Made by a program: the position numbers and the translations under genes | Notes under the pieces: generated by a model | Databases searched by the model: none | What the model saw: only the letters and a program-made list of their open reading frames with translations | What the model was told of the DNA's origin: nothing | Part shown: positions 2,628-26,597 of the stretch, piece by piece | How the letters are laid out: each line of letters starts with the position of its first letter | Numbering within the stretch: position 1 is the first letter of the stretch | DNA from: a virus | Strand: one strand, 5' to 3' | Length of the DNA stretch: 64,000 nt | IMG/VR virus record: IMGVR_UViG_3300017917_001336 | Location: 32,001 to 96,000 of that record

Positions 2628-3770
2628 ATGGCACGTTATAATACGGTAATCCCAACAGCGACTGCGTCTGCTACAGCATCAATTGCATCTCCAGGTGCTG
2701 GTGCATTTACAAAACTTACAGGTACTAGCTATACTGTAACAATTGGAGATCCTGTACTATTTGCCGGTCAATCTCAAGTATTCTATAATGCTGCCAGCGG
2801 AACAATTACATTAACATTTACTAGTACTGGTGCAGGAACATTTATTGGCCCAGGCGGAAGCACTACAACAAGTCAAACAATTGGTAGTGGATCAACATTA
2901 ACAATTTATTCTGATGGTACTAACTGGGTATTAATGGGTTCAGGTGGCGGTCCTGTAACAGCAACAACAGGTTCATTTAGCGGCGACATAACACTTACTG
3001 GCGCAACACCTACAGTTAACTTTAACAATACTAATCCAACTATTGCTACAAACAGTTCAGGAAGTACAGCTACAGTTTTTAACACTAACGTTACTACGCT
3101 TAACATTGGCGGTGCAGCCACTACTATTGCAATGGGTGTAAATGCTGGTACAACTACATTAAAAGGTAAGCTATCGCTTGCTGGCTCAGGTAGTGGTACT
3201 GTTTCATTCCAGGCAGCAGCCGCGGCAGGTTCAGTAACTTATACATTACCGAGTGCCGATGCAGCTGCGTCTGGTTATGCACTAGTATCAAACGGTAGTG
3301 GTACATTAAGTTGGGCACAAACAGGTGCATCAGTAACTGACGACAGTTCATCAACAACTTTATATCCATTGTTGTTTAATGCTACTAGCGGAAATGCAAC
3401 AACTATCAGAGTATCAAGTACAAAATTATCGTTTAATGCTTCGACTGGTACAATGACAGCAACGGCATTGACTGCAACAACTATTACTGAAACTTCTAGT
3501 ATAGCACTAAAAGAAAATTTAAATCCAATTACTGGTGCACTTGATAAAGTTTTACAACTAGCAGCATATACATATGATCGTAAAGATGGATCTAGTAAAA
3601 ACGAAGCTGGTTTAATTGCTGAAGATGTAAACGAAATTATTCCAAACTTAGTTACATTAGATAAAGATGGCAAGCCTTACGGTATTCAATATACGAAACT
3701 TACAGCTTATCTTGTTGAAGCAGTTAAATCACTAAAGGAAGAGATTGATAGATTAAAAGGTAATAAGTAA
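2628..3770 (+). CDS. Tail fibre protein with C-terminal intramolecular chaperone (peptidase S74)
   Basis: T/S/G-rich shaft, then SSIALKENL..ALDKVLQL...GLIAEDV..IIPNLV...IQYTKLTAYLVEAVKSL coiled end. Confidence 0.8.
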   Translation: MARYNTVIPTATASATASIASPGAGAFTKLTGTSYTVTIGDPVLFAGQSQVFYNAASGTITLTFTSTGAGTFIGPGGSTTTSQTIGSGSTLTIYSDGTNWVLMGSGGGPVTATTGSFSGDITLTGATPTVNFNNTNPTIATNSSGSTATVFNTNVTTLNIGGAATTIAMGVNAGTTTLKGKLSLAGSGSGTVSFQAAAAAGSVTYTLPSADAAASGYALVSNGSGTLSWAQTGASVTDDSSSTTLYPLLFNATSGNATTIRVSSTKLSFNASTGTMTATALTATTITETSSIALKENLNPITGALDKVLQLAAYTYDRKDGSSKNEAGLIAEDVNEIIPNLVTLDKDGKPYGIQYTKLTAYLVEAVKSLKEEIDRLKGNK

Positions 3771-5596
3771 TGGCAACGTTAAAAAATACCACAATTAGTG
3801 ATACTGGAACTTTAAAATTATCAACAGGTACGCAAGCACAGCGTCCAGCGATTGTTTCAAAAGTACAATCATTTTCAAGCCCTGGTACATGGACTGCACC
3901 TACTGGAGTAACTAGCGTTGAAGTGTTAGTTGTTGCCGGTGGTGGTGGTACTGGTTGGGACGTTGGTGGCGGAGGTGGCGGAGGTGGCGTACTATATGCT
4001 GCTAGTTTTCCAGTCACACCAGGAACACCATATCCAGTAGGCGTAGGTTCAGGTGGTGCTTCTGCATCAACTCCCGGAGCTAAAGGATCTAACGGAGGCA
4101 ACTCAAACTTTTCAACATTAACTGCTGTCGGCGGTGGTGGAGGAGGAGCATATCCCGGTAACGGTGCAGGTCTTCCCGGCGGATCTGGTGGTGGTGGAGG
4201 AGACCAATTTGCTTCGGGCGGTTCTGGAACACAATCTCCAAGCGGCCCAGCTACTGGATACGGATTTCCTGGAGGTGGTAGTGGACAAGCATGGGTAGGT
4301 GGTGGTGGCGGTGGCGCTGGCGGCGCTGGCCAAGGTGGCGGAGGAATTTTGCGCTATCAAGATTCAAGAGAAAGCAACTTATCAGGCGGCGACGGTTCTA
4401 TTGCATTGCCTGGAGGATGGACTGGTTACCCGGGATCAGGCGGCTTTTATGAAGGAACAGCAGCTTTAGGTGGGCCAGGATTAACATTTACAATTACTGG
4501 AACAGCAATTACATATTCAGGCGGCGGCCACGGGCAATCTGACGGTGGATTTATTCAACCAACAAACCCTAATCCAGGGTGGGGTGCAAACGGTTCTGGT
4601 GAAGGCGGCTCGTATTATCCCGGAAGTCCCGGTGTAGTTGTTTTAAGATATAGAGTTCCAACTGATACAGAAACTAGTGGATATGCTAGATTTAACACAA
4701 ATAGTAATAGTTTAGAAATGGACGGTGGTAGCGGTTTTTCATCGTTACAAGATGCAGCAGATTCACGCATTGTTAAATTTACCGAAGTTGGTAGTTGGAC
4801 TTGGACTGTTCCTGCAAACGTTTATAGCGTCAGAGTACTAGTAGTTGCTGGCGGTGGTGGCGGATGTGAACGTCACGGTGGTGGTGGAGGTGGAGGCGGT
4901 ATGCTTGAGCATTTTGGCTATCCAGTTACACCAGGCGCAAGTATCCCAGTAGTAGTTGGCGCAGGCGGTAAAGGTTTAGCTAAACCATCAGGAAATCCAC
5001 ACGGAAATCCAGGCTATCAAGGTTATCCAAGTAGTTTTGGAGATATTATTACTTATGGCGGTGGCGGTGGATTCAGTGACGGAAGTGTCCAAGGCGATCC
5101 AAGAGCCACTGGTGGCGGAGTCCAGCTCGCTGGCGGATCAGGTGGCGGCGGAAGCCATAACCCTGGTAACGTGTCTGGCGTAGGCATCTTAGGACAAGGA
5201 TTTCCAGGCGGTGGCGCATCTAGTTCGCAGACAAGCCGTGGCGGTACAGGCCCATATCCTGGTACAGGTAACCCACATGCAGGCGGTGGTGGCGGTGGCG
5301 CAGGTGGCGCAGGCGAACCATCGAGAAGCAACAGTGAAGCAGGTAATGGTGGCCCAGGACGAATGAGCGATATTACTGGACAACAAGTTTGGTACGCAGG
5401 CGGCGGCGGCGGATCTTGCCATAATAACACTACTCAAGGCGGTAAAGGTGGTATTGGTGGTGGTGGCGATGGTGGCGGCCCTGGATATCATCAACCGGGT
5501 GTTGACGGTCTTGGTGGTGGTGGCGGTGCAGCTAATAATGATCCAGCTCCTGTAGGTGGATATGGTGGCTCCGGAATTGTTATTATTCGTTATTAA
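3770..5596 (+). CDS. Glycine-rich virion/fibre protein, paralog 1 (two Gly-rich domains)
   Basis: Two copies of FSSPGTWTAP.GV.SV.VLVVAGGGGG...GGSGIVIIRY; N-terminus MATLKNTTI.DTG shared with 8047 and 9889. Confidence 0.75.
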   Translation: MATLKNTTISDTGTLKLSTGTQAQRPAIVSKVQSFSSPGTWTAPTGVTSVEVLVVAGGGGTGWDVGGGGGGGGVLYAASFPVTPGTPYPVGVGSGGASASTPGAKGSNGGNSNFSTLTAVGGGGGGAYPGNGAGLPGGSGGGGGDQFASGGSGTQSPSGPATGYGFPGGGSGQAWVGGGGGGAGGAGQGGGGILRYQDSRESNLSGGDGSIALPGGWTGYPGSGGFYEGTAALGGPGLTFTITGTAITYSGGGHGQSDGGFIQPTNPNPGWGANGSGEGGSYYPGSPGVVVLRYRVPTDTETSGYARFNTNSNSLEMDGGSGFSSLQDAADSRIVKFTEVGSWTWTVPANVYSVRVLVVAGGGGGCERHGGGGGGGGMLEHFGYPVTPGASIPVVVGAGGKGLAKPSGNPHGNPGYQGYPSSFGDIITYGGGGGFSDGSVQGDPRATGGGVQLAGGSGGGGSHNPGNVSGVGILGQGFPGGGASSSQTSRGGTGPYPGTGNPHAGGGGGGAGGAGEPSRSNSEAGNGGPGRMSDITGQQVWYAGGGGGSCHNNTTQGGKGGIGGGGDGGGPGYHQPGVDGLGGGGGAANNDPAPVGGYGGSGIVIIRY

Positions 5597-5604
5597 GGAT
5601 TTTT

Positions 5605-5904
5605 ATGGCAGAGCTAGAAAATAATCAACAAGAACAAACAGTAGTTAGTGTTCCCACTCTTCCTACAAAAGAAGAATTATTAGAAAAATGGGATTCTTCT
5701 TGGGGAGTTTATATATGGTACGGATCAATTCCAGAATTTTTGTTAAAATGGGGATTGTTAGGAAACCATGAAATTAGAGAACACACAGAATATGAGTATA
5801 TTGACACCGATCAAGATGGCACATATGAAGTAATGTTTACTACTAAGAATGTAGAGTTTAGTACAGATGAAGAATTTTCATCAAAAATTAAACAAGTTCG
5901 ATAA
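5605..5904 (+). CDS. Hypothetical acidic protein
   Basis: AAGGA RBS, 99 aa ORF following the Gly-rich gene. Confidence 0.6.
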   Translation: MAELENNQQEQTVVSVPTLPTKEELLEKWDSSWGVYIWYGSIPEFLLKWGLLGNHEIREHTEYEYIDTDQDGTYEVMFTTKNVEFSTDEEFSSKIKQVR

Positions 5905-5917
5905 AATTACTACTAAT

Positions 5918-5944
5918 AAAAAAGCACCCTTAGGGTGCTTTTTT
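5918..5944. terminator. Bidirectional rho-independent terminator
   Basis: AAAAAAGCACCC-TTA-GGGTGCTTTTTT between convergent genes. Confidence 0.9.
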
Positions 5945-7409
5945 ATTTTGTGTCTCTTATTACTGAAAGCATCATTTTGTGAGATATTTCTTTAGTTTCT
6001 TTTAAGAAATTTATCTCATGTGCTACAAGGTTATCAGCATGTTCTCTAATTAATGAATGTAACATCTGATACTCTTTCTTAATAGATTCTTGATCAAATA
6101 ATCCAAGCCCCTGCATTACTACAATAAAATTAGCTTCTGTAAATAATGCATATTGAGAAACATTATAAAAGTCTTCTTTGATTGGCAACTTATATCTCCA
6201 CTGCTCTAAATTAGATTTTAGGCTATCTGGAAGTTCAAGATTTTGTATATCTTTCCAAAACTGACTGTTATCTTTTTTAACAACGTAATGTAGCGCAATG
6301 AAATCTCTAATATTTTCCATAATGCTGGTTATTGATCTATTATAACTTTCAATTGTTTTTTCATCATAGTTTGCTAGTCTATGCATTAAAATAAATGCCT
6401 GTTGAATAGACGTGCCAATACTAGTTGCTTCTAGTGGCTCTACAAAACTTCCGCTAAGGCCGATTGCAACACAATTTTTAATCCATGCACGATCTAATGC
6501 ACCCGGATCAAATTTAAATTCTTTACCAATTTCAATCTCATGTCCTAGGTATTTTTCTGCTTCTGCCTTAGCTTGATCCTGCGTAATATAATCGCTGTCA
6601 TAGATATAACCATTTCCACCACGACCCCAAACAGGTATTCTAAACATCCAACCGTAATCCATTGCTTTTGCTAAAGTCCACATATTATAGTTTTCTGTAT
6701 CCGGTGTTGGAAATGCTATAGCAGCCTTCATTTTTAAATACTTTCCGTAACTTATCCACTTTGCTCCTAACTTAGACATTAGAATACGTTTAAATCCGGT
6801 ACTATCGATGTAAAAATCATAGTTGTAATCTTGTTTGTTTCCTTTAAGAGTACCAATACTACCATCTTCAGCTAAAGTAACATCAATAATTTCGTCATCG
6901 ATAAAATTAATCCCCAAAGATTTACCAGTTTTAGTTAAAAATTCATTTAATTTATGTGTGTTAAAATGATACTGACTAGCAGGTGATTCTTTTGGATTAT
7001 TTAAAAACCATGTATTAACTTGACTTCTCCAATATCGTTCACTTGACATTGCTGTAGCTGGTTCGCCTTCAGCAATTAATTTGCCGTACACATATCTATA
7101 TTGACTGGCTCGACCGTCGTAAGGGACTTGTACGCTGTGCATATAAGGATCAGGAGTCCAATCTCTAAACATAATACCTACTTTGTATGTAGCATCGCAT
7201 TCTTTGATTAATGTGTATTGGTCAATTTCTAAAAAATCCATAAACTCTTTCCAGTGTTCAGTACTTCCTTCACCGACACCAACTATCCCAATAGCTTTAG
7301 AACATATTAAATCAATATGTAAATCTGGGAGACGTTTTTTTAAAACTAATGCAGCTACTAGTCCAGCGGTACCGCCGCCGACTACTGCTAATCTATTAAC
7401 ATGTTTCAT
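5943..7409 (-). CDS. Flavin-dependent halogenase (tryptophan halogenase/PrnA family)
   Basis: VVGGGTAG FAD motif, GVGEGS, DATYKVGIMFRDW (catalytic Lys position), IDSTGF, GWMFRIP (WxWxIP variant), FVEPLEATSIG. Confidence 0.88.
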   Translation of the reverse strand: MKHVNRLAVVGGGTAGLVAALVLKKRLPDLHIDLICSKAIGIVGVGEGSTEHWKEFMDFLEIDQYTLIKECDATYKVGIMFRDWTPDPYMHSVQVPYDGRASQYRYVYGKLIAEGEPATAMSSERYWRSQVNTWFLNNPKESPASQYHFNTHKLNEFLTKTGKSLGINFIDDEIIDVTLAEDGSIGTLKGNKQDYNYDFYIDSTGFKRILMSKLGAKWISYGKYLKMKAAIAFPTPDTENYNMWTLAKAMDYGWMFRIPVWGRGGNGYIYDSDYITQDQAKAEAEKYLGHEIEIGKEFKFDPGALDRAWIKNCVAIGLSGSFVEPLEATSIGTSIQQAFILMHRLANYDEKTIESYNRSITSIMENIRDFIALHYVVKKDNSQFWKDIQNLELPDSLKSNLEQWRYKLPIKEDFYNVSQYALFTEANFIVVMQGLGLFDQESIKKEYQMLHSLIREHADNLVAHEINFLKETKEISHKMMLSVIRDTK

Positions 7410-7966
7410 ACGAAATTATACCATCCTGTAATTATATATTTTTCTTCAGTTGGACTAATTACACCTCTATGTGTATGTGTCCAGTCTGCAGGCCAAATTA
7501 ATGTTTTTCCTTGCTCAGCTGTTGTAATCAAATTTTGATGGAAAAATTCAGTTCCTCCACCATTACTTACTGTGTTTAAGTACGTCATAAAAACTAAATG
7601 CCTTGTACTGTTTATAGGATCGGGCGATCCTCTTTCAGTATGATATGCAACATATCCTTCACCTGGTTTATAATGCTGTATTTTCACTCGTTCTCTAATA
7701 GTAAATGGACTATAAGAATTGCAATATGGATATTGCTGTATATAAGTTTCTAATACTTGTTGCAATTCATACAAATAATTTGATAGCGCAGGATCTAAGA
7801 TATCATACCTACATTCTGTGCTAGATTTTTCTAAAGAATTTACAAGACCATCGACTTTACCTTGCCAAATAGTTCCTGCACGTTTTGAAGGATCATTTTT
7901 AAATAATTCTATTAAATCTTCGCAAGTTTGGGGAGAAACAACCCCTTGTCCTATAAACGTATTCAT
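7406..7966 (-). CDS. 2OG-Fe(II) oxygenase (prolyl-hydroxylase-like)
   Basis: YHTE...VFMTYLN..GGGTEF...WPADWTHTHRG..KYIITGW; start moved to ATG 7966, 5 nt below a TAACTA box. Confidence 0.85.
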   Translation of the reverse strand: MNTFIGQGVVSPQTCEDLIELFKNDPSKRAGTIWQGKVDGLVNSLEKSSTECRYDILDPALSNYLYELQQVLETYIQQYPYCNSYSPFTIRERVKIQHYKPGEGYVAYHTERGSPDPINSTRHLVFMTYLNTVSNGGGTEFFHQNLITTAEQGKTLIWPADWTHTHRGVISPTEEKYIITGWYNFV

Positions 7967-8046
7967 ACATTTAGTTAGCACTTTTTAACTTTCTTGCTTT
8001 AATATTTGGCTAAATAATAGAAATAATCGTAAAGAGATTAGAATTC

Positions 8047-9873: not shown

Positions 9874-9888
9874 TAGGATAAACACAGT

Positions 9889-10944
9889 ATGGCAACTTTA
9901 AAAAATTCGATAATTAGCGACACAGGTTTTTTTGATTTACCTGGAGGTACAACAGCTCAACGTCCGGCTAGCCCAGTATCGGGAATGCTTCGTTTTAACA
10001 CAGATTTAAATTGTGCAGAATTTTACAACGGAACAACCTGGGTTCAAATTGAAAATCAAACAGTTAACTCAACGGGTGAAATTACTAAAACAGTACTACA
10101 CGTTTTTAATCAAGTAGGCAGTTATACATTTACACCACCAGTTGGTGTTGATGTAGTTCAAGTATTAGTAGTTGCTGGCGGTGGCGGCGGTGGTTCACGT
10201 AACGGTGGCGCAAACGGTGGCGGTACTGACGGGGGTGCAGGCGGCGGCGCTGGCGGCTTTGTTGAAGTAGGTTACTATCCAGTAACAGGCGGAGTAGGTA
10301 TTCCTGTTGTTGTGGGTCGAGGTGGCGTTGGCGGTTCTAGACCAGCTGTACCGGGACAAAGCCCAGGCGAAAACGGAACAAACTCATCATTTGGAGCACT
10401 AATTGCAATCGGTGGTGGAGGCGGAGGATGCGGGCCAGGCGGCCCAGCTGCTGACGGAAAACCGGGCGGTTCAGGTGGCGGACGTGGAGGCGGCGGCTCT
10501 CCAAATACCGGCGTTACCGGAACAGGTACACAAAAATCACAACCAACTGCATCAGGCGGCGGCACACGTGGCTGGGGATACCCAGGCGGTTATAATCCAA
10601 ACGTGTCCAACTATTCTGGTGCTGGTGGTGGCGGTGCCGGTGGCGCAGGATATGACGGTGGTTCTAGTAGAACAGCACCAGGCGGCCAAGGACGTATGAG
10701 TATGATTACTGGATATCAAGTTTGGTATGCAGGTGGTGGCGGCGGAGCCAGTGGATCAAGTGCTAGCCACGCAGGTCAAGGTGGTCTTGGCGGCGGCGGC
10801 CGCGGAAACGGATATAGTGCCAGCGGAGATCCGGGCGGATTTGCATCTGGCGGTGGTGGTGGTGGCGGATCTGGAGGTAACTCTGGTGACGGCGCAGGCT
10901 ACGGCGGCGATGGCGGTCCAGGAATTGTTATTGTTAGATATTAA
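9889..10944 (+). CDS. Glycine-rich virion/fibre protein, paralog 3 (single Gly-rich domain)
   Basis: LPGGTTAQRP..GMLRFNTD..EFYNGTTW anchor, then one Gly-rich domain ending GGPGIVIVRY. Confidence 0.75.
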   Translation: MATLKNSIISDTGFFDLPGGTTAQRPASPVSGMLRFNTDLNCAEFYNGTTWVQIENQTVNSTGEITKTVLHVFNQVGSYTFTPPVGVDVVQVLVVAGGGGGGSRNGGANGGGTDGGAGGGAGGFVEVGYYPVTGGVGIPVVVGRGGVGGSRPAVPGQSPGENGTNSSFGALIAIGGGGGGCGPGGPAADGKPGGSGGGRGGGGSPNTGVTGTGTQKSQPTASGGGTRGWGYPGGYNPNVSNYSGAGGGGAGGAGYDGGSSRTAPGGQGRMSMITGYQVWYAGGGGGASGSSASHAGQGGLGGGGRGNGYSASGDPGGFASGGGGGGGSGGNSGDGAGYGGDGGPGIVIVRY

Positions 10945-10953
10945 GGAATTGAA

Positions 10954-11160
10954 ATGTTACCGTTAACAACAGAAGATGCAGCTCAACTAAATCTACATTA
11001 TCAAGGATATACTATTGATTCTAGTAAAGGTCCTCATTTAGCTACAAACGAACTAGTAGCTAAATGCCACACAGAAAAATTACCTAGCGGAAATGTTGCA
11101 CATTTGTACTATGATCTAGCAGCTGATCATGTATATGTGTATGACGTTACACCAGGTTAA
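10954..11160 (+). CDS. Hypothetical protein
   Basis: AAGGA RBS, 68 aa; same position after a Gly-rich gene as 5605..5904. Confidence 0.5.
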   Translation: MLPLTTEDAAQLNLHYQGYTIDSSKGPHLATNELVAKCHTEKLPSGNVAHLYYDLAADHVYVYDVTPG

Positions 11161-11801
11161 CTGTAACCATACAGTTCAAACTGTCTTTCAGAACTTAACT
11201 TTCTAGTATTTGAATTTAAACCTAACATTGGCCGAGTGTCGTATTTTAATTCAGCTCTCGGCCCGTTTGCACGAACATAGAACATAAATGCGTTAATTTG
11301 TTCTCGCCCGTGGTATGGGGTTCTCCAGTGAGGAAGCTCATGTCCTCTGTACATAATAGCATCTCCTGGTTCTTGAACTATTTCCATAACAGTTTTATCT
11401 TTGTCTTCCATGTATAATGGCCAAGGTGTTGTAGTTTCGTCCACTTCTATACACAACGACACACTAAATTCTGATGCAGATCTATCAATGTGTCTTAACA
11501 TCTCTGCACCATTTGAATATATTCTAGCATATGAATATGTAGGAAATACAGGCTCCTTAAGATAATTTTCTACAACTGATTTAATTAAACTATCTGAAAG
11601 AGCTTCAAAACATAATGGACTGTACCATGAAAAACTACGATTTACCATTTCGTCATGCCACGGAAACTCATTTTCAGTAGTAGGTCTTTGAACAGCATAC
11701 GCAAGCTCTCTAGCTAATTTAAATTCTCTTGCTAAAATTTTACACGCATCTTTATGTACAGCATTTTTTAAAATAGCGTACCCATCTTTTTCAAAACTCA
11801 T
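11157..11801 (-). CDS. 2OG-Fe(II) oxygenase-like protein
   Basis: PTYSYARIY...LRHIDR.SEFSVSL...GDAIMYRG..LPHWR; paralog of 15034..15693. Confidence 0.8.
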   Translation of the reverse strand: MSFEKDGYAILKNAVHKDACKILAREFKLARELAYAVQRPTTENEFPWHDEMVNRSFSWYSPLCFEALSDSLIKSVVENYLKEPVFPTYSYARIYSNGAEMLRHIDRSASEFSVSLCIEVDETTTPWPLYMEDKDKTVMEIVQEPGDAIMYRGHELPHWRTPYHGREQINAFMFYVRANGPRAELKYDTRPMLGLNSNTRKLSSERQFELYGYS

Positions 11802-13501
11802 AGAGAATCCTTTTTTATTAATAGATTAAATTCTGGCAAATACAAATAATTAATTTCAGATCTGCGAATAGTACCTAGCGCATCATCGATAGTTTCTACT
11901 ATACAATCACCAGCTAAATTAAAACTAGTATTGAACAGTATAGGCACGCCTGTTAGTTTATAAAACTCATTAATTAAGTTGTAAAAATGTTTATTATCAT
12001 CATGTTTTAAAGTTTGTACTCGACAAGTGCCATCAACATGTGTTATAGCTGGTATTTCTGATTGTTTATTTTTATGAACATTAACAGCAAACATCATGTA
12101 AGGACTTTCATGCAACCCCCTTAAGTCAAACCAATCATTTGCATATTCATGCAATACAGTACCAGCAAATGGCCTAAACCATTCTCTTTGTTTAACAGTA
12201 TTAACATGATCCTTTCCCACTGGATCTCTAGGATCATATAGGATGCTACGATTTCCTAATGCTCTAGGGCCAGCCTCGCTTCTTCCTTGATACATTGCTA
12301 CAATATTTTTATTAGCAATGATTGTTGCTACATCACTCGGCGTAACAACTGTATAAGTTTCCTTAACCAATTTAGAAATTATATCATTGACAGAATAACT
12401 ATACTCTAATCCATAGTATAATGATTTTTGAGGACGCTTTGTAGTATCTTTTGTTTTTTCGTGCCAGATTAACTTAGCCGCTCCAATGCTAGTGCCGGCA
12501 TCTGATGAAATTGGTTCAACATATATTTTTATGTCTGGCGGCAGTTCATTTAAAAATTCATAGTTAGCTACACAATTTAAAAAGTAACCACCAGATAAAC
12601 ATACATTCTTACACCCAGTAAGTTTTACCATTTTGAGGATATATGACTTAATTTCGTTTTGAGTTTGAGTTTGCAAACTGTAAGCAAAATCAGCTTGTGT
12701 TTGAAAATCTGCATTTATTAAGTGCGGAGCTAACTTTGTATTAACTTCGACTGTTCTTAAATCGTTTTGTTTAGGTTTAAATAACTCTGTATTCACAAAA
12801 CCTTGTTTAATAATAGCCGGATTCCGATCATCGTTCCTTCCATAGGAACTCATACCCATAACTTTACCAGCATCTAACTCGTGAAATCCAAATTGTTTTG
12901 ATGTCTTTTGAAACGCCAATGCTTCACTGATTGCATTTGTAATTTTAACATTATCGTCAACTATAACGTTAGCTTCAAACGGCACTGACACTACTTTATC
13001 AAGTTGAACAAAATTAGCAGGATAATTAGCAATAAAAGTTGTACTAGATTCTCTACCGTACGAACCTTGCAAAAATCTTTGGTCATTTATGTAGTAATCA
13101 CTGCCCATTCCGTCTTTAATAATACAAAGAGCTTGGTCAAATCCTGAATTATAAAATGCACACGCAGCATGTAACTTGTGATGATGTGCCCATAGGTCAT
13201 AAAAATTATAATCTTTATTATAGAAATCTTTGTTTAATCTTGATATAAAGGTTGTATAGACATTGTCTGTAGTAAAATTTTCTACAGGAACTGTTGGCCC
13301 AACACCAGCTACACAAATATCGTTAACATGATCTACATAGTCGGGTAATTTTGCCAGTGTTTGAAACACATACGCATCGTATTTTATGTTAGACAACCGT
13401 TCGTTTTCTAAATGGAATACCATCTCGCCATTTTTTAAAACGGTTACAGCAGAATTGTGTACTCTGCTTATTCCTACAGTAATGTGGTCGTGTTTGCTCA
13501 T
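11798..13501 (-). CDS. Carbamoyltransferase, NodU/CmcH/TobZ family (full length)
   Basis: HHKLHAACAFY, GKVMGMSSYG, LSGGYFLNCVAN, DAGTSIGAA, GRSEAGPRALGNRSIL, KQREWFRPFAG, HVDGTCRVQT, NTSFN. Confidence 0.92.
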   Translation of the reverse strand: MSKHDHITVGISRVHNSAVTVLKNGEMVFHLENERLSNIKYDAYVFQTLAKLPDYVDHVNDICVAGVGPTVPVENFTTDNVYTTFISRLNKDFYNKDYNFYDLWAHHHKLHAACAFYNSGFDQALCIIKDGMGSDYYINDQRFLQGSYGRESSTTFIANYPANFVQLDKVVSVPFEANVIVDDNVKITNAISEALAFQKTSKQFGFHELDAGKVMGMSSYGRNDDRNPAIIKQGFVNTELFKPKQNDLRTVEVNTKLAPHLINADFQTQADFAYSLQTQTQNEIKSYILKMVKLTGCKNVCLSGGYFLNCVANYEFLNELPPDIKIYVEPISSDAGTSIGAAKLIWHEKTKDTTKRPQKSLYYGLEYSYSVNDIISKLVKETYTVVTPSDVATIIANKNIVAMYQGRSEAGPRALGNRSILYDPRDPVGKDHVNTVKQREWFRPFAGTVLHEYANDWFDLRGLHESPYMMFAVNVHKNKQSEIPAITHVDGTCRVQTLKHDDNKHFYNLINEFYKLTGVPILFNTSFNLAGDCIVETIDDALGTIRRSEINYLYLPEFNLLIKKDSL

Positions 13502-13574
13502 GATTAACTAGTTATCTTCAAAACTTTCAAGCCCTAAAATATTGTACTATAAATACTTGCCACCGTAAAGAGAA

Positions 13575-14237
13575 ATGACTATGTTCACTAATATTGAAAA
13601 ATCGCCCGAAAACTCAAATTTTGCATCAAAAGATTTAATTGATAAAACAATAGAGTCAAAAGACCAACAGCGTGTTGATCTTTATCAACCAAAAGCACCT
13701 GAAGGGTTGTTATCTATTGCTACCGCTACATTATTCAATAATGAAGAATGTAAAAAAATTATTGATAGTTGCATTGGCGAGCTTTGGACACCAGTTAAAG
13801 TGTACGGATCTGGAAACATACATCGAGCATCAATGCAACGATTAAGAGGAAATTTATCAGAGCATCCTTTAAATTTATTTCGAGAGGCAATTGTATCTGC
13901 TAACGCAGAAATATACAACTTTAGTCTTGTAGGCATGATTGACTTAGATTATCCTCAAGTAGCTCGATATAGTAAAGGTGATTTCTATGATCTTCATACT
14001 GAAATTAATCCTATGACTCTAACAAGAAAACTTTCGTTTCTTGTTATGTTAAACGATCCATCAGAGTACGAGGGCGGTGAAATTGAATTTTTAAATACAG
14101 AATTAAAACACGAAGAAACTTCACAAGTTGGTACTATGCTTATCTTTCCTAGTTTTTTAACTTATAGAATTAAGCCTGTAAAGAAAGGAAGTAGATATGT
14201 AGTTACTGGAAGCATTCATGGAGATTCGTTTAAATGA
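13575..14237 (+). CDS. 2OG-Fe(II) oxygenase-like protein, distal His replaced (possibly inactive)
   Basis: YDLHTE..RKLSFLVMLNDPSEYEGGE...FPSFLTYRIKPVKKGSRY; perfect TATAAATA at 13548-13555. Confidence 0.75.
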   Translation: MTMFTNIEKSPENSNFASKDLIDKTIESKDQQRVDLYQPKAPEGLLSIATATLFNNEECKKIIDSCIGELWTPVKVYGSGNIHRASMQRLRGNLSEHPLNLFREAIVSANAEIYNFSLVGMIDLDYPQVARYSKGDFYDLHTEINPMTLTRKLSFLVMLNDPSEYEGGEIEFLNTELKHEETSQVGTMLIFPSFLTYRIKPVKKGSRYVVTGSIHGDSFK

Positions 14238-15037
14238 TATTAGAAAATAATTATTTTTGGTTTAAATCTGCATTAAGTCCCGAGGTATGTAATAAAATTA
14301 TCGACTTGGGAGAAGAAAAACTAGCAGAATTAGAGCGACAGTTTGGTGAAAGAGCTACGGAAGCTACTACATTTGATCACAAACAAAAGAATGGGTCTAT
14401 CGGTGATGAGCCTGCTGGTAAATTATCTGCAGGTGCATTATCAAGAGAAGGTAGATTAAAAAAAGGTATTAAAGAAGAAGATGTTTACATTCGTGATACA
14501 AAAGTATCGTGGTTAGACGATCGCTGGATTTACGACTTAATACATCCGTACATCCACGAAGCAAATTATCGAGCAGGTTGGAATTTTGAATGGGATTGGT
14601 CAGAATCCTGTCAATTTACAAAGTATGGTATCGATCAGTTTTATGGTTGGCATACTGACTCTGGTTGGGAACCTTATACACGATTTGACCCCGAAGTTGA
14701 CGAAATTGTTAGATATGCCGACGGCACTCCTATGTTAGATGCTTTTAACAACGTCATACCAAAAAATAGACATAAGATTACAGATGAAAATAAAATTGGG
14801 AAGATTAGAAAAATTAGTGTTACTATTAATTTGACCGACCCAAAAAACTATGACGGCGGAAACTTAAAATTTGATTTTGGACCACACGCTGAAAAAAGAT
14901 TTCATACATGTACTGAAATTAGACCAAAGGGTAGTATAATTGTTTTTCCGTCACATGTATATCATCAAGTAACCCCAGTAACTAGAGGTACACGATACAG
15001 TCTAGTTTTATGGAATTTAGGAAAGCCATTCAGATGA
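14234..15037 (+). CDS. 2OG-Fe(II) oxygenase (PKHD/prolyl-4-hydroxylase-like)
   Basis: FYGWHTD...RKISVTINL..YDGGNL...FPSHVYHQVTPVTRGTRYSLVLW. Confidence 0.88.
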   Translation: MILENNYFWFKSALSPEVCNKIIDLGEEKLAELERQFGERATEATTFDHKQKNGSIGDEPAGKLSAGALSREGRLKKGIKEEDVYIRDTKVSWLDDRWIYDLIHPYIHEANYRAGWNFEWDWSESCQFTKYGIDQFYGWHTDSGWEPYTRFDPEVDEIVRYADGTPMLDAFNNVIPKNRHKITDENKIGKIRKISVTINLTDPKNYDGGNLKFDFGPHAEKRFHTCTEIRPKGSIIVFPSHVYHQVTPVTRGTRYSLVLWNLGKPFR

Positions 15038-15693
15038 GCAACGCAGAATATTTTAAAGAACATCATTATACAGTTATTAAAGGTATTATACCTCAAGAAA
15101 TTTGTAACGTAGCTACTAAGTATGCGTTATTAAAAATGGAAACTGAGTTTAATCCTGAAGATGTAAGAACTGGACAAATTCCAGGAACACATTCTATCTA
15201 CAGCGATACACTAATGGAAACATTAATGCATTTTATGTTGCCACACATGGAAGCAGCAACAGGATTAGAATTATGTCCAACATATACTTACTACAGAGTT
15301 TACAAAGCAGGTGATGAATTGCTTAGACATAAAGATAGAGAAAGTTGTGAGATATCAACAACTGTATGTTTTGGATTTAATTATCTAAGTGATGATTCCA
15401 ACTATCGTTGGCCTATATTTGTAGACGAAAAATCTGTTTCTGTTTCTACTAAAAACGGATTTGTATCAGCAAACAATCCAGGAGTTTCAGTTAGCATGGA
15501 ACCTGGAGATGCTGTTGTATATCGAGGTTGCGAAGTAGAGCATTGGCGAGAAAAATTTGATGTAAAAGAAGGTAGTTATCACGTACAAGCATTCTTACAT
15601 TATATTGATAAGAATGGTCCGTACTATCCTGAATTTGCGTTTGACGGTCGCAAAGGCATTGGATATAAAAAAGATTACACTTACACAAAATAA
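15034..15693 (+). CDS. 2OG-Fe(II) oxygenase-like protein
   Basis: PTYTYYRVY...LRHKDRESCEIS...GDAVVYRG..EHWRE..QAFLHY; ATGA overlap with upstream gene gives start 15034. Confidence 0.8.
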   Translation: MSNAEYFKEHHYTVIKGIIPQEICNVATKYALLKMETEFNPEDVRTGQIPGTHSIYSDTLMETLMHFMLPHMEAATGLELCPTYTYYRVYKAGDELLRHKDRESCEISTTVCFGFNYLSDDSNYRWPIFVDEKSVSVSTKNGFVSANNPGVSVSMEPGDAVVYRGCEVEHWREKFDVKEGSYHVQAFLHYIDKNGPYYPEFAFDGRKGIGYKKDYTYTK

Positions 15694-16361
15694 TGGCACA
15701 TTTGTACACTGATTTTATTTTTTGTAAAAATAATTTTTTTAAAAATCCAAAACGTGTATTGGAGTTTGCTAACTCTTTAGATTTTTCATTTAAAAATAGT
15801 GCGTTCCCTGGAACAAGGACAGAAAACTTAGCATTATCTAAAGATCCGGTTTCTAAAGAATTTGCACAATTTTTTGCAAGAAAACTTGTAAATGAAGTTT
15901 ATACTAACATTATTGACTTAGATATTGATATTCGTTTTCACAAGTACCCTAATTTACATGAAGATGCTGAATTAGACATTGGATGGGTACATCAAGATGA
16001 TAATGAATTATTAGCAGGTCTTGTTTATCTAAATGAAGATGTGGATAATTTTGATTCAGGCACATCGTTTTACAGTTCCCCTAATAACTTTGATTATCCA
16101 GGACAAATTAGATTAGATTTTAATTCTAATAACGCTGACATCAATTTAGAAAATTATAAAACTTGCTTGAAAAACCATACAGGACAATTTAAAGAAAATG
16201 CAAGAGTAGGTAATTTATATAATCGATTAATAACATATGATTCAAATGTTTTCCATAGACCCAATTCTTATAATACAGGCGACGGAAACAATAGACTCAT
16301 ATTAATTTTTGTAGTATCAAACTACTCATATAGAAATCGTGAATATGAGATTCACGAGTGA
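15693..16361 (+). CDS. 2OG-Fe(II) oxygenase-like protein
   Basis: FPGTRT, GWVHQD..LAGLVYLN..SGTSFY...YNRLITYDS.VFHRP..RLILIF. Confidence 0.7.
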   Translation: MAHLYTDFIFCKNNFFKNPKRVLEFANSLDFSFKNSAFPGTRTENLALSKDPVSKEFAQFFARKLVNEVYTNIIDLDIDIRFHKYPNLHEDAELDIGWVHQDDNELLAGLVYLNEDVDNFDSGTSFYSSPNNFDYPGQIRLDFNSNNADINLENYKTCLKNHTGQFKENARVGNLYNRLITYDSNVFHRPNSYNTGDGNNRLILIFVVSNYSYRNREYEIHE

Positions 16362-16391: not shown

Positions 16392-16724
16392 ATGTCAGAA
16401 AGACCACAAGTTGAACCGTTTTTTGATTACGGATCAGTAAACGACACACACAAAGAAGCTGCTAAAGCATGTGCTGTAATCTGTGAAGAATGCGGAATTC
16501 CAGAAATTGGCCAAATCATCAAACAGAGATTTGCAATTGAAGAACCTCCAACATACGATTTACATGCATCAGAATTTTATAAAGTTGCAACAGAAAATAA
16601 AATTTCTGTAACAGCTGGCGGTTATATTATGGAAAACGGTATGAAATATCCGTACTGTAATGTTTCAGCTGATATTAGAACATTAGAAAAGTTTTTAGAA
16701 ACTTTAAGATCTCAAAAAGATTAA
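16392..16724 (+). CDS. Hypothetical protein
   Basis: AGGAG RBS, TAAGTA box at 16362. Confidence 0.65.
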   Translation: MSERPQVEPFFDYGSVNDTHKEAAKACAVICEECGIPEIGQIIKQRFAIEEPPTYDLHASEFYKVATENKISVTAGGYIMENGMKYPYCNVSADIRTLEKFLETLRSQKD

Positions 16725-26588: not shown

Positions 26589-26597
26589 GGACTCATA

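What the first reader, a model, noticed from the sequence alone, without database searches (positions are those of the whole stretch)
3770..16361. RiPP-like tailoring cluster (halogenase, six 2OG-Fe(II) oxygenases, carbamoyltransferase) interleaved with three Gly/Pro-rich virion proteins
Seen: Gly-rich gene, small gene, then a convergent enzyme operon, occurring twice (halogenase+oxygenase; oxygenase+carbamoyltransferase), followed by four more oxygenase-like genes. The enzyme operons start at TAA(A/C)TA boxes like those of structural genes (7972-7977 minus, 13509-13514 minus, 13548-13555), not at sigma70 promoters as the replication genes do. Established: NodU/TobZ enzymes carbamoylate hydroxyl groups, 2OG oxygenases hydroxylate Pro/Lys/Asp, and PrnA-type enzymes halogenate aromatic rings. 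Inference: a late-expressed pathway that decorates virion fibres (hydroxylation, then carbamoylation; Trp/Tyr halogenation) rather than DNA.
Basis: partly seen in the sequence, partly recalled or inferred. Interest (0 to 1): 0.75.

Follow-up and report, generated by a model that had tools for sequence, protein, structure and literature searches.

The report
Phage fibre tips paired with tailoring enzymes
An uncultured lake phage interleaves three glycine-rich tail-fibre tip genes with a halogenase, a carbamoyltransferase and six oxygenase-type genes, and across many phages each tip subtype keeps its own enzyme set, so the enzymes probably decorate the host-recognition tip, though no modification has been measured.

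Summary
The promoter claim holds for only one of three enzyme operons.

The three Gly-rich proteins are tail-fibre tips. An AF2 model of Gly3 matches the cyanophage Pam3 fibre gp24 (Z 16.4) and the Bxb1 tail tip (Z 16.2).

The enzymes are a flavin halogenase, a TobZ/NodU-type O-carbamoyltransferase (CT), and six 2OG-oxygenase-fold proteins. One of the six lacks a metal ligand. They are homologues of the Syn9 gp40-54 array, known since 2007-2010, whose target is still unknown.

New here:
- Tip subtype and neighbouring enzyme type are inherited together, even where module order differs.
- Tips beside the CT carry a private loop, [ST]RN...GGTDGG, often with QPGxPG.
- I scanned IMG/VR for that loop alone. 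All 36 evaluable tips had a tailoring enzyme directly downstream: 23 CT, 12 oxygenases only, 1 glycosyltransferase.
- Most other Gly-rich tips have none.

Best reading (about 0.45): tip-specific cassettes hydroxylate, carbamoylate or halogenate exposed tip loops. Rivals are matched receptor masking and secondary metabolism.

This scan has flagged similar clusters before on other DNA. Cultured phages with the same module (S-SSM5, S-TIM4, P-RSM4, Syn9) make the idea testable by mass spectrometry.

The parts
2628..3770 (+). Fibre shaft protein (380 aa) with a C-terminal S74 intramolecular-chaperone domain. It directly precedes the tip genes.
   Evidence: PF13884 E 2.5e-11. The same order, giant fibre - p117 - S74 fibre - Gly tips, is seen in relatives L003, L005, L088 and L089.
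3770..5596 (+). Gly1: a 608-aa fibre-tip protein with two Gly_rich_2 domains. It is the HAL-type tip ((E/Q/N)RH, SHN and PYPG motifs).
   Evidence: PF21722 E 2.6e-33. Its nearest tips elsewhere are also halogenase-adjacent: L069 62%, L073 57%. Motifs.
5605..5904 (+). small99: a 99-aa protein behind Gly1, a candidate tip chaperone. This is inferred from its position only.
   Evidence: No Pfam or PHROG hit. Homologues follow HAL-type tips in L003 and L005. Pam3 gp24 is followed by its chaperone gp25 (PMC9608196).
5915..5947 (.). Bidirectional terminator-like hairpin between small99 and the halogenase gene.
   Evidence: 15-pair stem with T-runs on both sides.
5943..7409 (-). Flavin-dependent (tryptophan-type) halogenase, 488 aa.
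   Evidence: PF04820 E 4.7e-94. PDB Trp halogenases E 7e-63 and VirX1 6qgm E 1e-42. GxGxxG, Lys in ATYKVGI and EPLE are present; WxWxIP reads GWMFRIP. Matches Syn9 gp41/gp42.
7406..7966 (-). Oxy1: P4H-type 2OG-Fe(II) oxygenase, first gene of the halogenase operon. I take the ATG at 7966 as the start rather than the GTG at 7981.
   Evidence: PF13640 E 2.4e-8. H-T-E ... WTHTHRG is conserved in 12 homologues. Matches Syn9 gp50 at E 9e-47. Weak hit to PBCV-1 P4H 5c5t.
8010..8016 (+). Late-type promoter box CTAAATA, 30 nt before the Gly2 start.
8047..9873 (+). Gly2: a 608-aa fibre-tip protein with two domains. The second domain is CT-type (TRN...GGTDGG).
   Evidence: PF21722 E 6.5e-35. Motif.
9889..10944 (+). 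Gly3: a 351-aa CT-type fibre tip. It has an N-terminal fibre-attachment motif followed by a TNF-like plus polyglycine domain. Private loops: SRNGGANGGGTDGG (residues 103-116) and TQKSQP (214-219).
   Evidence: AF2 pLDDT 78. Pam3 gp24 Z 16.4, rmsd 2.5 over 187 residues; Bxb1 tail tip Z 16.2. Nearest tips are all CT-adjacent. Motifs.
10954..11160 (+). small68: a 68-aa protein behind Gly3, with no homologue found. Its stop overlaps the convergent Oxy2 stop.
11157..11801 (-). Oxy2: a 2OG-Fe(II) oxygenase of the family that public records call 'ferrochelatase' (phrog_2954, T4-GC 615).
   Evidence: phrog_2954 E 7e-51. AF2 pLDDT 92. Foldseek top hits are Pseudomonas PPHD 4j25/4iw3 and PHD2. H104, D106 and H158 are invariant in 26 sequences. 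Matches Syn9 gp54.
11798..13501 (-). NodU/CmcH/TobZ-family O-carbamoyltransferase, 567 aa.
   Evidence: PF16861 E 2.7e-61 and PF02543 E 4e-21. PDB hits 7xb6, NovN, GdmN and TobZ at E 1e-40 to 1e-49. 55% identical to the S-SSM5, S-CAM8, P-RSM4 and S-TIM4 CTs.
13548..13555 (+). Perfect T4-type late promoter box TATAAATA, 19 nt before the Oxy3 start.
   Evidence: One of 2 copies in the window against 8.6 expected. TAAATA is 11-fold enriched upstream of starts.
13575..14237 (+). Oxy3: a P4H-fold protein that lacks the distal iron-binding His. It is probably catalytically inactive.
   Evidence: PF13640 E 5e-12. Tyr (window) or Phe (L003) stands in place of the His.
14234..15037 (+). Oxy4: a PKHD/PiuC-like P4H-type 2OG oxygenase. 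This family accompanies the CT in most phages.
   Evidence: PF13640 E 8e-13. PiuC 9ghl E 1.3e-5. WHTD ... HQVTPVTRGTRY is conserved. It neighbours the CT.
15010..15693 (+). Oxy5: a paralogue of Oxy2, and the second usual partner of the CT.
   Evidence: phrog_2954 E 4.5e-45. phmmer against Oxy2 E 1e-21. In alignment A2.
15693..16361 (+). Oxy6: a DUF6445 protein of the Syn9 gp52 dioxygenase family. HQD ... H is present in the sequence.
   Evidence: PF20043 E 5e-9. Matches Syn9 gp52 at E 1e-18. Iyer 2010 places gp52 among classical 2OG dioxygenases.
16392..16724 (+). p110: a small CxxC protein that recurs inside these cassettes in other phages. Function unknown.
   Evidence: 10 homologues lie within cassettes. 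Only weak thioredoxin/DsbA-like features.

Best explanation
The region is the distal tail-fibre (receptor-binding) module of a T4-like-tailed phage.

ANATOMY:
- Three paralogous tips with a TNF-like plus polyglycine domain, of the Pam3 gp24 type, follow an S74-type fibre shaft.
- Each tip subtype carries its own enzyme cassette. The Gly1 (HAL-type) tip is paired with a flavin halogenase and a P4H-type oxygenase.
- The Gly2 and Gly3 (CT-type) tips are paired with an O-carbamoyltransferase, two PHD-like oxygenases and a PiuC-like oxygenase.

PROPOSED MECHANISM (inferred, not shown):
- During virion assembly the oxygenases hydroxylate side chains in exposed, glycine-flanked loops of the tip. Candidates are the [ST]RN...GGTDGG insertion in the first polyglycine loop and the (T/A)Q-P-G-x-P-G loop, which resembles the X-Pro-Gly sites of collagen prolyl hydroxylases.
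- The carbamoyltransferase then O-carbamoylates a new or existing hydroxyl.
- The halogenase halogenates an aromatic residue of the HAL-type tip.
- The result would be a chemically altered receptor-binding surface.

SHOWN: the folds and families, the gene linkage, and the co-variation of motif and enzyme. INFERRED: the substrate, the residues and the timing.
For: (1) The Gly-rich proteins are fibre tips. Gly3 residues 58-351 match Pam3 gp24 (Z 16.4) and the Bxb1 tail tip (Z 16.2). Residues 13-59 match N-termini of other phage fibre proteins (PMC9608196).

(2) All these enzymes and all Gly-rich proteins of the genome lie in this one block.

(3) Of 29 unique full-length CTs in other phages, 20 have a Gly-rich tip within 6 kb and 14 have one immediately convergent. 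21 have a P4H-type and 19 an FC-type oxygenase nearby. This includes cultured S-SSM5.

(4) Tip subtype tracks enzyme type. The nearest cross-locus tip has the same label in 15 of 18 cases, against 10.6% in shuffles (0 of 5000 shuffles reached it).

(5) Module order differs between this window and L005, while the tip-enzyme pairing is kept.

(6) CT-type tips have private loops. G[TS]DGG is in 19 of 21 CT-adjacent tips against 6 of 61 others, and 4 of those 6 are tandem partners inside CT cassettes. QPGxPG is in 11 of 21 against 0 of 61.

(7) An enzyme-blind IMG/VR scan for GGTDGGxGGGAGG gave 36 evaluable tips. 23 have a CT, 12 have P4H, Oxy_5 or FC oxygenases only, and 1 has a GT2 glycosyltransferase. 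None lacks a tailoring enzyme.

(8) Cassettes in relatives hold only tailoring enzymes (oxygenases, halogenases, a methyltransferase, a cupin). No scaffold-building enzymes were found.

(9) The closest folds to Oxy2 are protein prolyl hydroxylases.

(10) The Oxy3-6 operon and Gly2 both have late boxes, and they share a leader 10-mer that occurs only twice in the genome.

(11) From my own knowledge: the wider superfamily of the CT includes HypF, which carbamoylates a protein cysteine, and MibH, SrpI and ChlH are peptide halogenases.
Against: - No chemical evidence of any modified fibre exists.
- 27 of 32 Gly-rich-tip loci sampled without regard to enzymes lack them, so such tips fold and work unmodified.
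- The Hal-Oxy1 and CT-Oxy2 operons lie on the opposite strand and have no late box. In S-SSM5-like phages the CT start is preceded by a TATAAT-like sequence, not TAAATA. That fits early rather than late expression.
- Characterised NodU/TobZ-family enzymes act on sugars and small molecules, not proteins.
- The fold matches of the oxygenases are distant (TM about 0.6, 11-19% identity) and include small-molecule enzymes such as SnoN and FtmOx1.
- In this window's own lineage the proline loop is degenerate (TQKSQP, not QPGxPG).
- Many of the loci are close relatives, so the counts overstate the number of independent events.
Confidence: 0.45

Rival explanations
1. Matched receptor masking. Each cassette modifies the host-cell surface structure (a glycan or an exported protein) that its neighbouring tip recognises. 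This would keep progeny from sticking to infected cells and debris, or block superinfection. It is analogous in logic to T5 llp beside the pb5 gene, or cor beside tail-fibre genes.
For: - It also predicts the co-inheritance of tip subtype and enzyme type.
- The opposite-strand operons lacking late boxes, and the TATAAT-like sequence before the CT in S-SSM5-like phages, fit early expression.
- Known NodU/TobZ enzymes carbamoylate sugars.
- One motif-bearing tip (L159) has a GT2 glycosyltransferase instead.
- The T5 llp and cor arrangement is from my own knowledge, not tested here.
Against: - The partner enzymes are overwhelmingly soluble 2OG oxygenases of protein-hydroxylase-like fold, plus flavin halogenases. 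These are not membrane-bound envelope modifiers, and almost no sugar-pathway genes occur in these cassettes.
- It does not explain why the enzyme-linked tips carry private conserved loops in otherwise hypervariable positions.
- The Oxy3-6 operon has a late box.
Confidence: 0.15
2. Accessory metabolism. The enzymes act on free amino acids, peptides or host metabolites, for example to make halogenated or hydroxylated secondary metabolites as Iyer et al. proposed for the Syn9 array, or to shift 2-oxoglutarate levels. They sit beside fibre genes only because that is a plastic, insertion-tolerant part of the genome.
For: - The window's enzymes are homologues of the Syn9 gp41/42, gp50, gp52 and gp54 array.
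- That array was interpreted this way in PMC2938197. Related readings are in PMC3037559 and PMC9146016.
- The enzyme genes have low GC (29-36%, against a genome median of 39%), consistent with acquired accessory genes.
- VirX1, a cyanophage homologue, halogenates many small molecules in vitro (cited).
- Halogenase and CT homologues also occur away from Gly-rich tips in some phages, such as S-H38 and the split-CT group.
Against: - A mere insertion hot spot does not predict that a given tip subtype keeps a given enzyme type through rearrangement.
- Nor does it predict that 36 of 36 tips found by their loop motif alone have a tailoring enzyme next to them, while 27 of 32 other Gly-rich tip loci have none.
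- No scaffold-forming enzymes are present.
Confidence: 0.2
3. DNA or nucleotide modification. Oxygenases plus the carbamoyltransferase, with the adjacent Nudix enzyme, hypermodify phage DNA bases.
For: - A Nudix hydrolase lies next to the block at 16721-17170.
- From my own knowledge, the Kae1/YrdC relatives of the CT carbamoylate tRNA.
- An earlier unchecked note on this genome suspects guanine modification.
Against: - The oxygenases belong to P4H, PHD, PiuC and gp52-type families, not to TET/JBP or AlkB.
- No base-modification genes are in the block.
- The tight linkage to a fibre-tip subtype would be unexplained.
Confidence: 0.04

Closest known systems
Syn9 gp40-gp54 array of two tryptophan-type halogenases and ten dioxygenases (Weigele 2007 genome; Iyer, Abhiman, de Souza and Aravind 2010, PMC2938197)
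   Same: - Homologous enzymes: Hal matches gp41/42, Oxy1 matches gp50 (E 9e-47), Oxy2 and Oxy5 match gp54, and Oxy6 matches gp52.
- The array lies directly behind Gly-rich tip genes (gp36, gp38, gp39) in the fibre module, with an ATAAATA box before gp40.
- Its target is unknown.
   Different: - Syn9 has one same-strand tandem array. Here the enzymes are split into three operons interleaved with the tips, two of them convergent.
- This cluster adds a carbamoyltransferase.
- The phage backbone is different: the terminase is nearest to PA5oct, not to Kyanoviridae.
- The published interpretation was secondary metabolism, not fibre decoration.
Cyanophage Pam3 tail fibre gp24 with chaperone gp25 (PDB 7ypx/7yfw; PMC9608196). 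Related: S16 gp38 and the Bxb1 tail-tip protein.
   Same: - The TNF-like plus polyglycine receptor-binding domain: Z 16.4, 30% identity over 187 residues.
- A small gene follows the tip gene, as gp25 follows gp24.
   Different: - Pam3 has one tip and no tailoring enzymes are described for it.
- Here there are three paralogous tips, two of them with two domains, attached behind a separate S74 shaft.
- The tips carry subtype-specific loop insertions.
S-SSM5 / S-CAM8 / P-RSM4 / S-TIM4 'Nol-like carbamoyltransferase' locus (T4-GC 303) in marine T4-like cyanophages
   Same: - The CT is 54-55% identical.
- It is convergent with a Gly-rich tip (SSSM5_040, 388 aa) that carries the same RN...GGTDGG loop.
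- It is flanked by the same P4H-type and 'ferrochelatase'-type oxygenases.
   Different: - There is a single tip with a single cassette and no halogenase at that site.
- The literature treats the CT as a nucleotide-synthesis or 'other' auxiliary gene (PMC9146016, PMC3037559).
Virus-encoded modification of virion proteins, from my own knowledge and not tested here: mycobacteriophage capsid and tail glycosylation, chlorovirus and mimivirus collagen-type hydroxylation and glycosylation, PBCV-1 prolyl 4-hydroxylase
   Same: - The logic is the same: structural genes sit beside virus-encoded tailoring enzymes.
- Oxy1 gives a weak hit to PBCV-1 P4H 5c5t (E 0.045).
   Different: - The chemistry proposed here (carbamoylation, halogenation) and the target (receptor-binding polyglycine tip) have no demonstrated precedent.
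- The sequence similarity to those enzymes is marginal.
Bacterial operons of beta-hydroxylase and PhyH dioxygenases plus sulfotransferases, co-encoded with tail-collar or secreted glycine-rich proteins (Iyer 2010, PMC2938197)
   Same: Dioxygenases are co-encoded with a glycine-rich or phage-fibre-like protein that is predicted to be their substrate: hydroxylation followed by a group transfer.
   Different: Those are bacterial, use sulfation rather than carbamoylation, and involve different dioxygenase families. They too are only predicted.

Membership tests
Flavin-dependent tryptophan-type halogenase (PF04820) | Full-length match to the family profile and to solved halogenases | tested here: met
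   PF04820 E 4.7e-94 over residues 7-441. PDB 6nsd E 7e-63, PrnA E 2e-52, VirX1 E 1e-42.
Flavin-dependent tryptophan-type halogenase (PF04820) | GxGxxG FAD motif, catalytic Lys, and the conserved Glu in E-P-L-E | tested here: met
   The sequence has VVGGGTAGLV, K in ATYKVGI (aligned to ATYKLAV of 6nsd) and VEPLEATSI. Assigning these residues to catalytic roles rests on my knowledge of PrnA and RebH.
Flavin-dependent tryptophan-type halogenase (PF04820) | WxWxIP motif | tested here: inconclusive
   It reads GWMFRIP: the second Trp is Phe. The effect is unknown.
NodU/CmcH/TobZ O-carbamoyltransferase | Two-domain architecture: Kae1-like N domain plus YrdC-like C domain | tested here: met
   PF02543 E 4e-21 and PF16861 E 2.7e-61. 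TobZ, GdmN and NovN at E 1e-40 to 1e-49.
NodU/CmcH/TobZ O-carbamoyltransferase | Metal-site HxxxH and the carbamoyl-adenylate motifs of the C domain | tested here: met
   AHHHKLHAAC aligns to HHRAHLAC of 7xb6. GRSEAGPRALGNRS, FRPFA, THVDGTCRVQT and NTSFN are all aligned and conserved.
NodU/CmcH/TobZ O-carbamoyltransferase | Acceptor is a hydroxyl of a sugar or small molecule | not testable with these tools
   The acceptor is unknown. The reading proposed here (a protein hydroxyl) would depart from all characterised members.
2OG-Fe(II) oxygenase (double-stranded beta-helix) | HxD/E...H iron triad in each of the six proteins | tested here: not met
   - Met in five: Oxy1 HTE...H; Oxy2 H104, D106, H158; Oxy4 HTD...H; Oxy5 HKD...H; Oxy6 HQD...H.
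- Oxy3 has HTE, but Tyr replaces the distal His (Phe in its L003 orthologue).
- So Oxy3 has the fold but is probably not an active member.
2OG-Fe(II) oxygenase (double-stranded beta-helix) | Fold of the two proteins with no Pfam hit (Oxy2, Oxy5) | tested here: met
   AF2 pLDDT 92, pTM 0.88. Foldseek hits to PPHD 4j25 (E 1.5e-10, TM 0.59-0.68) and PHD2.
Pam3 gp24-type TNF-like plus polyglycine fibre tip | Fold match over the whole tip domain to solved virion fibre proteins | tested here: met
   7ypx Z 16.4, rmsd 2.5 over 187 residues; 9d93_Qb Z 16.2; ALK and LTK Gly-rich domains Z about 8.
Pam3 gp24-type TNF-like plus polyglycine fibre tip | Presence in the virion and binding to a receptor | not testable with these tools
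   Inferred from the fold and from the position behind the fibre shaft genes.
Syn9-type dioxygenase/halogenase array | Homologous enzyme set next to fibre genes | tested here: met
Syn9-type dioxygenase/halogenase array | Single same-strand tandem array | tested here: not met
   Here there are three operons on both strands, interleaved with the tip genes.
RiPP biosynthetic cluster | Short precursor peptide with a leader, plus a recognition element or core maturase | tested here: not met
   No such gene is present. The small ORFs (99, 68 and 110 aa) have no Pfam or PHROG hit. All the enzymes are tailoring types. The resemblance is limited to 'ribosomal product plus tailoring enzymes'.
Receptor-masking genes beside RBP genes (T5 Llp / Cor type) | Exported or membrane lipoprotein that blocks the receptor, expressed early | not tested
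   Signal peptides and timing were not examined. The proteins here are enzyme families normally found in the cytoplasm.

The most novel reading that the evidence does not exclude
Phages enzymatically rewrite the chemistry of their own receptor-binding tips. Dedicated cassettes, inherited together with a tip subtype, would hydroxylate, O-carbamoylate or halogenate exposed loops of polyglycine tail-fibre tips (the [ST]RN...GGTDGG and QPGxPG loops for the CT type, aromatic/His loops for the HAL type). If so, the long-unexplained banks of 2OG oxygenases, halogenases and carbamoyltransferases in cyanophages and their freshwater relatives would have a function: tuning host recognition or fibre stability.
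Probability: 0.4. Interest if true: 0.85.

Novelty: new variant of a known kind. Interest (0 to 1): 0.6.

Why it matters
Marine and freshwater myoviruses carry up to dozens of 2OG oxygenase genes, plus halogenases and carbamoyltransferases. Since 2005-2010 their roles have only been guessed at: DNA repair, 2-oxoglutarate control, pyrimidine synthesis, secondary metabolites.

The linkage shown here, with a tip subtype, a private loop motif and an enzyme cassette inherited together, turns that open question into a concrete experiment. The experiment can be run on phages already in culture. The peptides to look for are named, and so are the mass shifts: +16, +43, +59 and +34/+78/+126 Da.

If the tips are modified, this would be a new layer of host-range determination that sequence alone cannot show. 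It would also be the first protein substrate for a NodU-type carbamoyltransferase and for a viral halogenase. If the tips are not modified, the same linkage points to receptor masking matched to each tip, which would also be new for these phages.

Tried and rejected
SEARCHES THAT FAILED OR WERE UNINFORMATIVE:
- megablast of the region against phage records found nothing.
- tblastn with Gly2 found nothing, because the query is masked as low complexity. This says nothing about relatives.
- The search for related loci with Gly3 alone gave no confirmed locus.
- With the tip alignments, tblastn confirmed only 32 of 600 and 3 of 597 pattern matches, for the same reason. I replaced this with a direct DNA-pattern scan.

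READINGS TESTED AND REJECTED:
- 'Enzyme operons are generally late' was tested in relatives. 10 of 55 enzyme-operon leaders have TAAATA, against 50 of 270 for other genes, so there is no enrichment overall. 8 of 14 have it in the closest relatives.
- I rejected the 'ferrochelatase', 'DNA endonuclease V' and 'minor coat protein' labels that PHROGs and RefSeq give to these families.
- I rejected 'carbamoyltransferase = pyrimidine synthesis' (PMC9146016). The protein is a NodU/TobZ-type O-carbamoyltransferase, not an aspartate carbamoyltransferase.

LEADS THAT GAVE NOTHING:
- p110 gave only weak thioredoxin-like leads.
- The pelagiphage transcriptome paper held nothing on timing of these genes.

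Full report
WHAT IS THERE

The window is bases 32001-96000 of a single 147.6-kb phage contig with 39% GC. Earlier notes of this scan describe it as an uncultured freshwater phage. Its tail genes are T4-like: gp15 is PF16724. Its large terminase, however, is nearest to Pseudomonas phage PA5oct (55%) and not to cyanomyoviruses.

In order they are:
- the end of a 3354-aa fibre protein, a 117-aa protein, and a 380-aa fibre shaft with an S74 chaperone domain;
- Gly1 (3770-5596) and a 99-aa gene;
- a bidirectional hairpin (5915-5947);
- the convergent operon Oxy1-Hal (7966-5943);
- Gly2 (8047-9873), Gly3 (9889-10944) and a 68-aa gene;
- the convergent operon CT-Oxy2 (13501-11157);
- the plus-strand operon Oxy3-Oxy4-Oxy5-Oxy6 (13575-16361);
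- p110, then a Nudix gene and gp15 on the minus strand.

Every halogenase, carbamoyltransferase, oxygenase-like and Gly-rich gene of the whole genome is in this block. The enzyme genes have 29-36% GC, against a genome median of 39%.

THE PROTEINS

Halogenase. Hal is a full-length flavin-dependent halogenase: PF04820 E 5e-94, PDB Trp halogenases E 7e-63, VirX1 E 1e-42. It has the FAD motif, the lysine and the EPLE glutamate. WxWxIP is altered to WMFRIP.

Carbamoyltransferase. CT is a two-domain NodU/CmcH/TobZ O-carbamoyltransferase with its metal-site and adenylate motifs intact.

Oxygenases:
- Oxy1, Oxy3 and Oxy4 hit PF13640, and Oxy6 hits DUF6445.
- Oxy2 and Oxy5 have no Pfam hit and belong to a PHROG labelled 'ferrochelatase'.
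- An AF2 model of Oxy2 (pLDDT 92) is a double-stranded beta-helix. Its closest folds are the EF-Tu prolyl hydroxylase PPHD and PHD2. H104, D106 and H158 are invariant in 26 homologues.
- Oxy3 and its orthologue have lost the distal histidine.
- So 'six oxygenases' means five apparently competent enzymes and one probable pseudo-enzyme.

Fibre tips:
- The Gly-rich proteins (32-34% Gly, 5-7% Pro) carry PF21722.
- An AF2 model of Gly3 (pLDDT 78) matches the cryo-EM structure of the cyanophage Pam3 fibre gp24 (Z 16.4, rmsd 2.5 A over 187 residues, 30% identity).
- It also matches the Bxb1 tail-tip protein (Z 16.2) and, more weakly, the ALK and LTK glycine-rich domains.
- In Pam3 this TNF-like plus polyglycine domain is the receptor-binding tip, and a chaperone gene follows it (PMC9608196).
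- The three proteins are therefore tail-fibre tips, and the small genes behind them may be chaperones. The chaperone role is inferred from position only.

PROMOTERS

Early genes (window 62.8-73 kb, minus strand) have TTGACA/TATAAT promoters and a GGAGCGAA ribosome site.

The late signal is TAAATA. 36 of its 114 copies in the genome lie within 45 nt upstream of a same-strand start codon, where 2.8% would be expected. ATAAATA reaches 15 of 24.
- TATAAATA at 13548-13555 heads the Oxy3-6 operon. It is one of two copies in the window against 8.6 expected.
- CTAAATA at 8010 heads Gly2.
- These two leaders also share the 10-mer CGTAAAGAGA, which occurs nowhere else in the genome.

The CT operon has only a weak sigma-70-like match. 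Late expression is therefore supported by sequence for one enzyme operon and left open for the other two.

In S-SSM5-like phages the CT is preceded by a TATAAT-like sequence. No expression data could be obtained.

COMPARATIVE EVIDENCE

Best matches. The CT and Hal have their best matches in marine cyanomyoviruses (45-55% identity) and in IMG/VR contigs.

Close relatives. L003/L069, L004/L005 and L072 keep the alternation of tip gene and opposite-strand enzyme cassette, but with different enzymes. The unknown genes in their cassettes are further 2OG oxygenases, a methyltransferase and a cupin. None is a scaffold-building enzyme.

CT neighbourhoods. Of 29 unique full-length CTs:
- 20 have a Gly-rich tip within 6 kb;
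- 14 have one immediately convergent;
- 21 have a P4H-type oxygenase nearby;
- 19 have a 'ferrochelatase'-type oxygenase nearby.
This includes cultured S-SSM5, where SSSM5_041 is the CT and SSSM5_040 the tip. On a CT tree the tip-linked sequences form one group of 21, of which 19 are linked (this is the quick tree, not the finished search).

Reverse sampling. Loci found through the tip protein, without regard to enzymes, carry these enzymes in only about 5 of 32 cases. Gly-rich tips as a class do not need them.

Tip subtype tracks enzyme type:
- I compared the last 300 residues of 98 tips. After de-replication at 70% identity, the nearest tip from another locus has the same neighbour label (CT or HAL) in 15 of 18 cases. 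Shuffled labels give 10.6%, and 0 of 5000 shuffles reached the observed value.
- Relatedness inflates such a test. However, the pairing also survives rearrangement. In the window the order is shaft - Gly1[HAL] - Gly2 - Gly3[CT]. In L005 it is shaft - tip[CT] - tip[oxygenases] - tip[HAL]. Each tip is still most similar to the window tip with the same enzyme partner.

Private loops of the CT-type tips:
- They share an insertion, [ST]RN-x-GGTDGG, in the first polyglycine loop. This is Gly3 residues 103-116, which includes a low-confidence stretch of the model, and it is also present in the second domain of Gly2.
- They share a second loop, (T/A)Q-P-G-x-P-G.
- G[TS]DGG is in 19 of 21 CT-adjacent tips and 6 of 61 others. 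Four of those six are tandem partners inside a CT cassette.
- QPGxPG is in 11 of 21 against 0 of 61.
- HAL-type tips instead have (E/Q/N)RH, SHN and PYPG motifs.

Enzyme-blind test:
- I scanned IMG/VR for the DNA pattern encoding GGTDGGxGGGAGG and got 43 stretches.
- Of the 36 where the motif lies in a Gly-rich ORF with readable downstream sequence, 23 have a CT beside it.
- 12 have P4H, Oxy_5 or 'ferrochelatase'-type oxygenases without a CT.
- One (L159) has a GT2 glycosyltransferase. None lacks a tailoring enzyme.
- Many of these loci are close relatives. By tip length, gene context and contig I count roughly a dozen distinct lineages.

WHAT IS KNOWN

The window's enzymes map onto the Syn9 gp40-gp54 array: Hal to gp41/42, Oxy1 to gp50, Oxy2 and Oxy5 to gp54, Oxy6 to gp52. 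In Syn9 that array follows the Gly-rich tips gp36, gp38 and gp39 and has an ATAAATA box before gp40.

Published readings:
- Iyer et al. 2010 described the Syn9 array and proposed halogenated secondary metabolites. In the same paper they predicted that bacterial dioxygenase and sulfotransferase operons modify co-encoded tail-collar or glycine-rich proteins (PMC2938197).
- Sullivan et al. 2010 and later genome papers list the oxygenases as DNA-repair or 2OG-related genes, and the CT as 'other' or pyrimidine synthesis.
- Reviews treat the halogenases as metabolic genes.

I found no paper linking the CT and oxygenases to a tip subtype. Earlier reports of this scan reached similar 'fibre-linked tailoring' readings on other genomes. 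The cluster type is therefore not new to the scan.

INTERPRETATION

The linkage data argue against a mere insertion hot spot. They favour a functional tie between each tip subtype and its cassette. Two mechanisms predict such a tie.

Decoration of the tip itself (0.45). I prefer this for four reasons:
- The linked tips carry private, conserved loops in positions that are otherwise hypervariable.
- One of those loops is an X-Pro-Gly repeat of the kind collagen-type prolyl hydroxylases use.
- The cassettes hold only tailoring enzymes, with protein-hydroxylase-like folds.
- One enzyme operon shares late signals with a tip gene.
A hydroxylase followed by an O-carbamoyltransferase is an established two-step logic (cephamycin, discussed).

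Against it: the missing late boxes on two operons, the sugar and small-molecule substrates of all characterised NodU-type enzymes, the degenerate proline loop in this window's own tips, and the complete absence of chemical data.

The rivals:
- Matched receptor masking (0.15) would explain the opposite-strand, possibly early operons.
- Accessory or secondary metabolism (0.20) remains the published view.
- DNA modification (0.04) has no specific support.

VERDICT

The cluster is a rearranged, carbamoyltransferase-bearing relative of a known cyanophage array, in a different phage backbone. Its main value is that it names cultured phages, proteins and loops in which the hypothesis can be tested directly.

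Noticed in passing
whole genome; in the window e.g. 33921, 37974, 39580, 61691 (+) and 20072, 61575 (-): TAAATA boxes fall into two distance classes from the start codon: 18-30 nt and only 4-7 nt. The second class leaves no room for a leader with a ribosome site. Either many late mRNAs are leaderless or nearly so, or TAAATA also serves as a translation-initiation element.
   Followed up: partly
window 8028-8037 and 13564-13573: The 10-mer CGTAAAGAGA occurs only twice in the 147.6-kb genome. Both copies lie in late leaders, those of Gly2 and Oxy3, just downstream of the late box. It may be a shared regulatory or ribosome-binding element, or a copied promoter cassette.
   Followed up: partly
window 13575-14237 (Oxy3) and L003:4423-5079: This is a conserved P4H-fold protein that has lost the distal iron-binding histidine (Tyr or Phe instead) and, in L003, the 2OG-binding Arg. 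It may be a pseudo-enzyme, possibly a substrate-binding or scaffolding partner.
   Followed up: partly
window 16392-16724 (p110): A small protein with a C-E-E-C motif recurs inside these enzyme cassettes in about 10 other loci. It has only weak thioredoxin/DsbA-like features. It could be a redox helper.
   Followed up: partly
public annotation: phrog_2954, phrog_2297, phrog_1644; Syn9 gp46, gp51-gp54; SSSM5_043: Three 2OG-oxygenase families are labelled 'ferrochelatase', 'DNA endonuclease (V)' and 'minor coat protein' in PHROGs and RefSeq. Fold and motif evidence and Iyer 2010 show that they are dioxygenases. These labels propagate into new phage genomes.
   Followed up: yes
window 21601-27718: There is a second fibre set: a 1231-aa fibre sharing the S74-shaft sequence, followed by three paralogues of 430, 187 and 185 aa. 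They are not Gly-rich and have no enzymes beside them. The 430-aa protein is 43% identical to S-SSM5 SSSM5_037.
   Followed up: no
L159:6027-8117 (IMGVR_UViG_3300035670_002721): This is the only GGTDGG-loop tip without an oxygenase or CT. It has a GT2 glycosyltransferase two genes downstream, just before the portal gene. It hints that the same loop may be glycosylated in some phages.
   Followed up: partly
L126, L131, L133, L137, L143, L144, L150, L153, L157: A second class of GGTDGG-loop tips (583-589 aa) is followed by P4H, two Oxy_5-type oxygenases and a 'ferrochelatase'-type oxygenase, then a 643-725-aa protein of unknown family. There is no CT.
   Followed up: partly
L120:13150-14328 (Syn9 gp39, RefSeq): The annotated gp39 translation holds the same tip-domain segment twice, separated by a Cys/Leu-rich stretch that looks out of frame. 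It may be a tandem duplication read through a frameshift in the record.
   Followed up: no
window 53824-54771: A 315-aa protein gives a weak phmmer hit to the CT (E 1e-6). It may be another Kae1/ASKHA-fold protein. I did not examine it.
   Followed up: no
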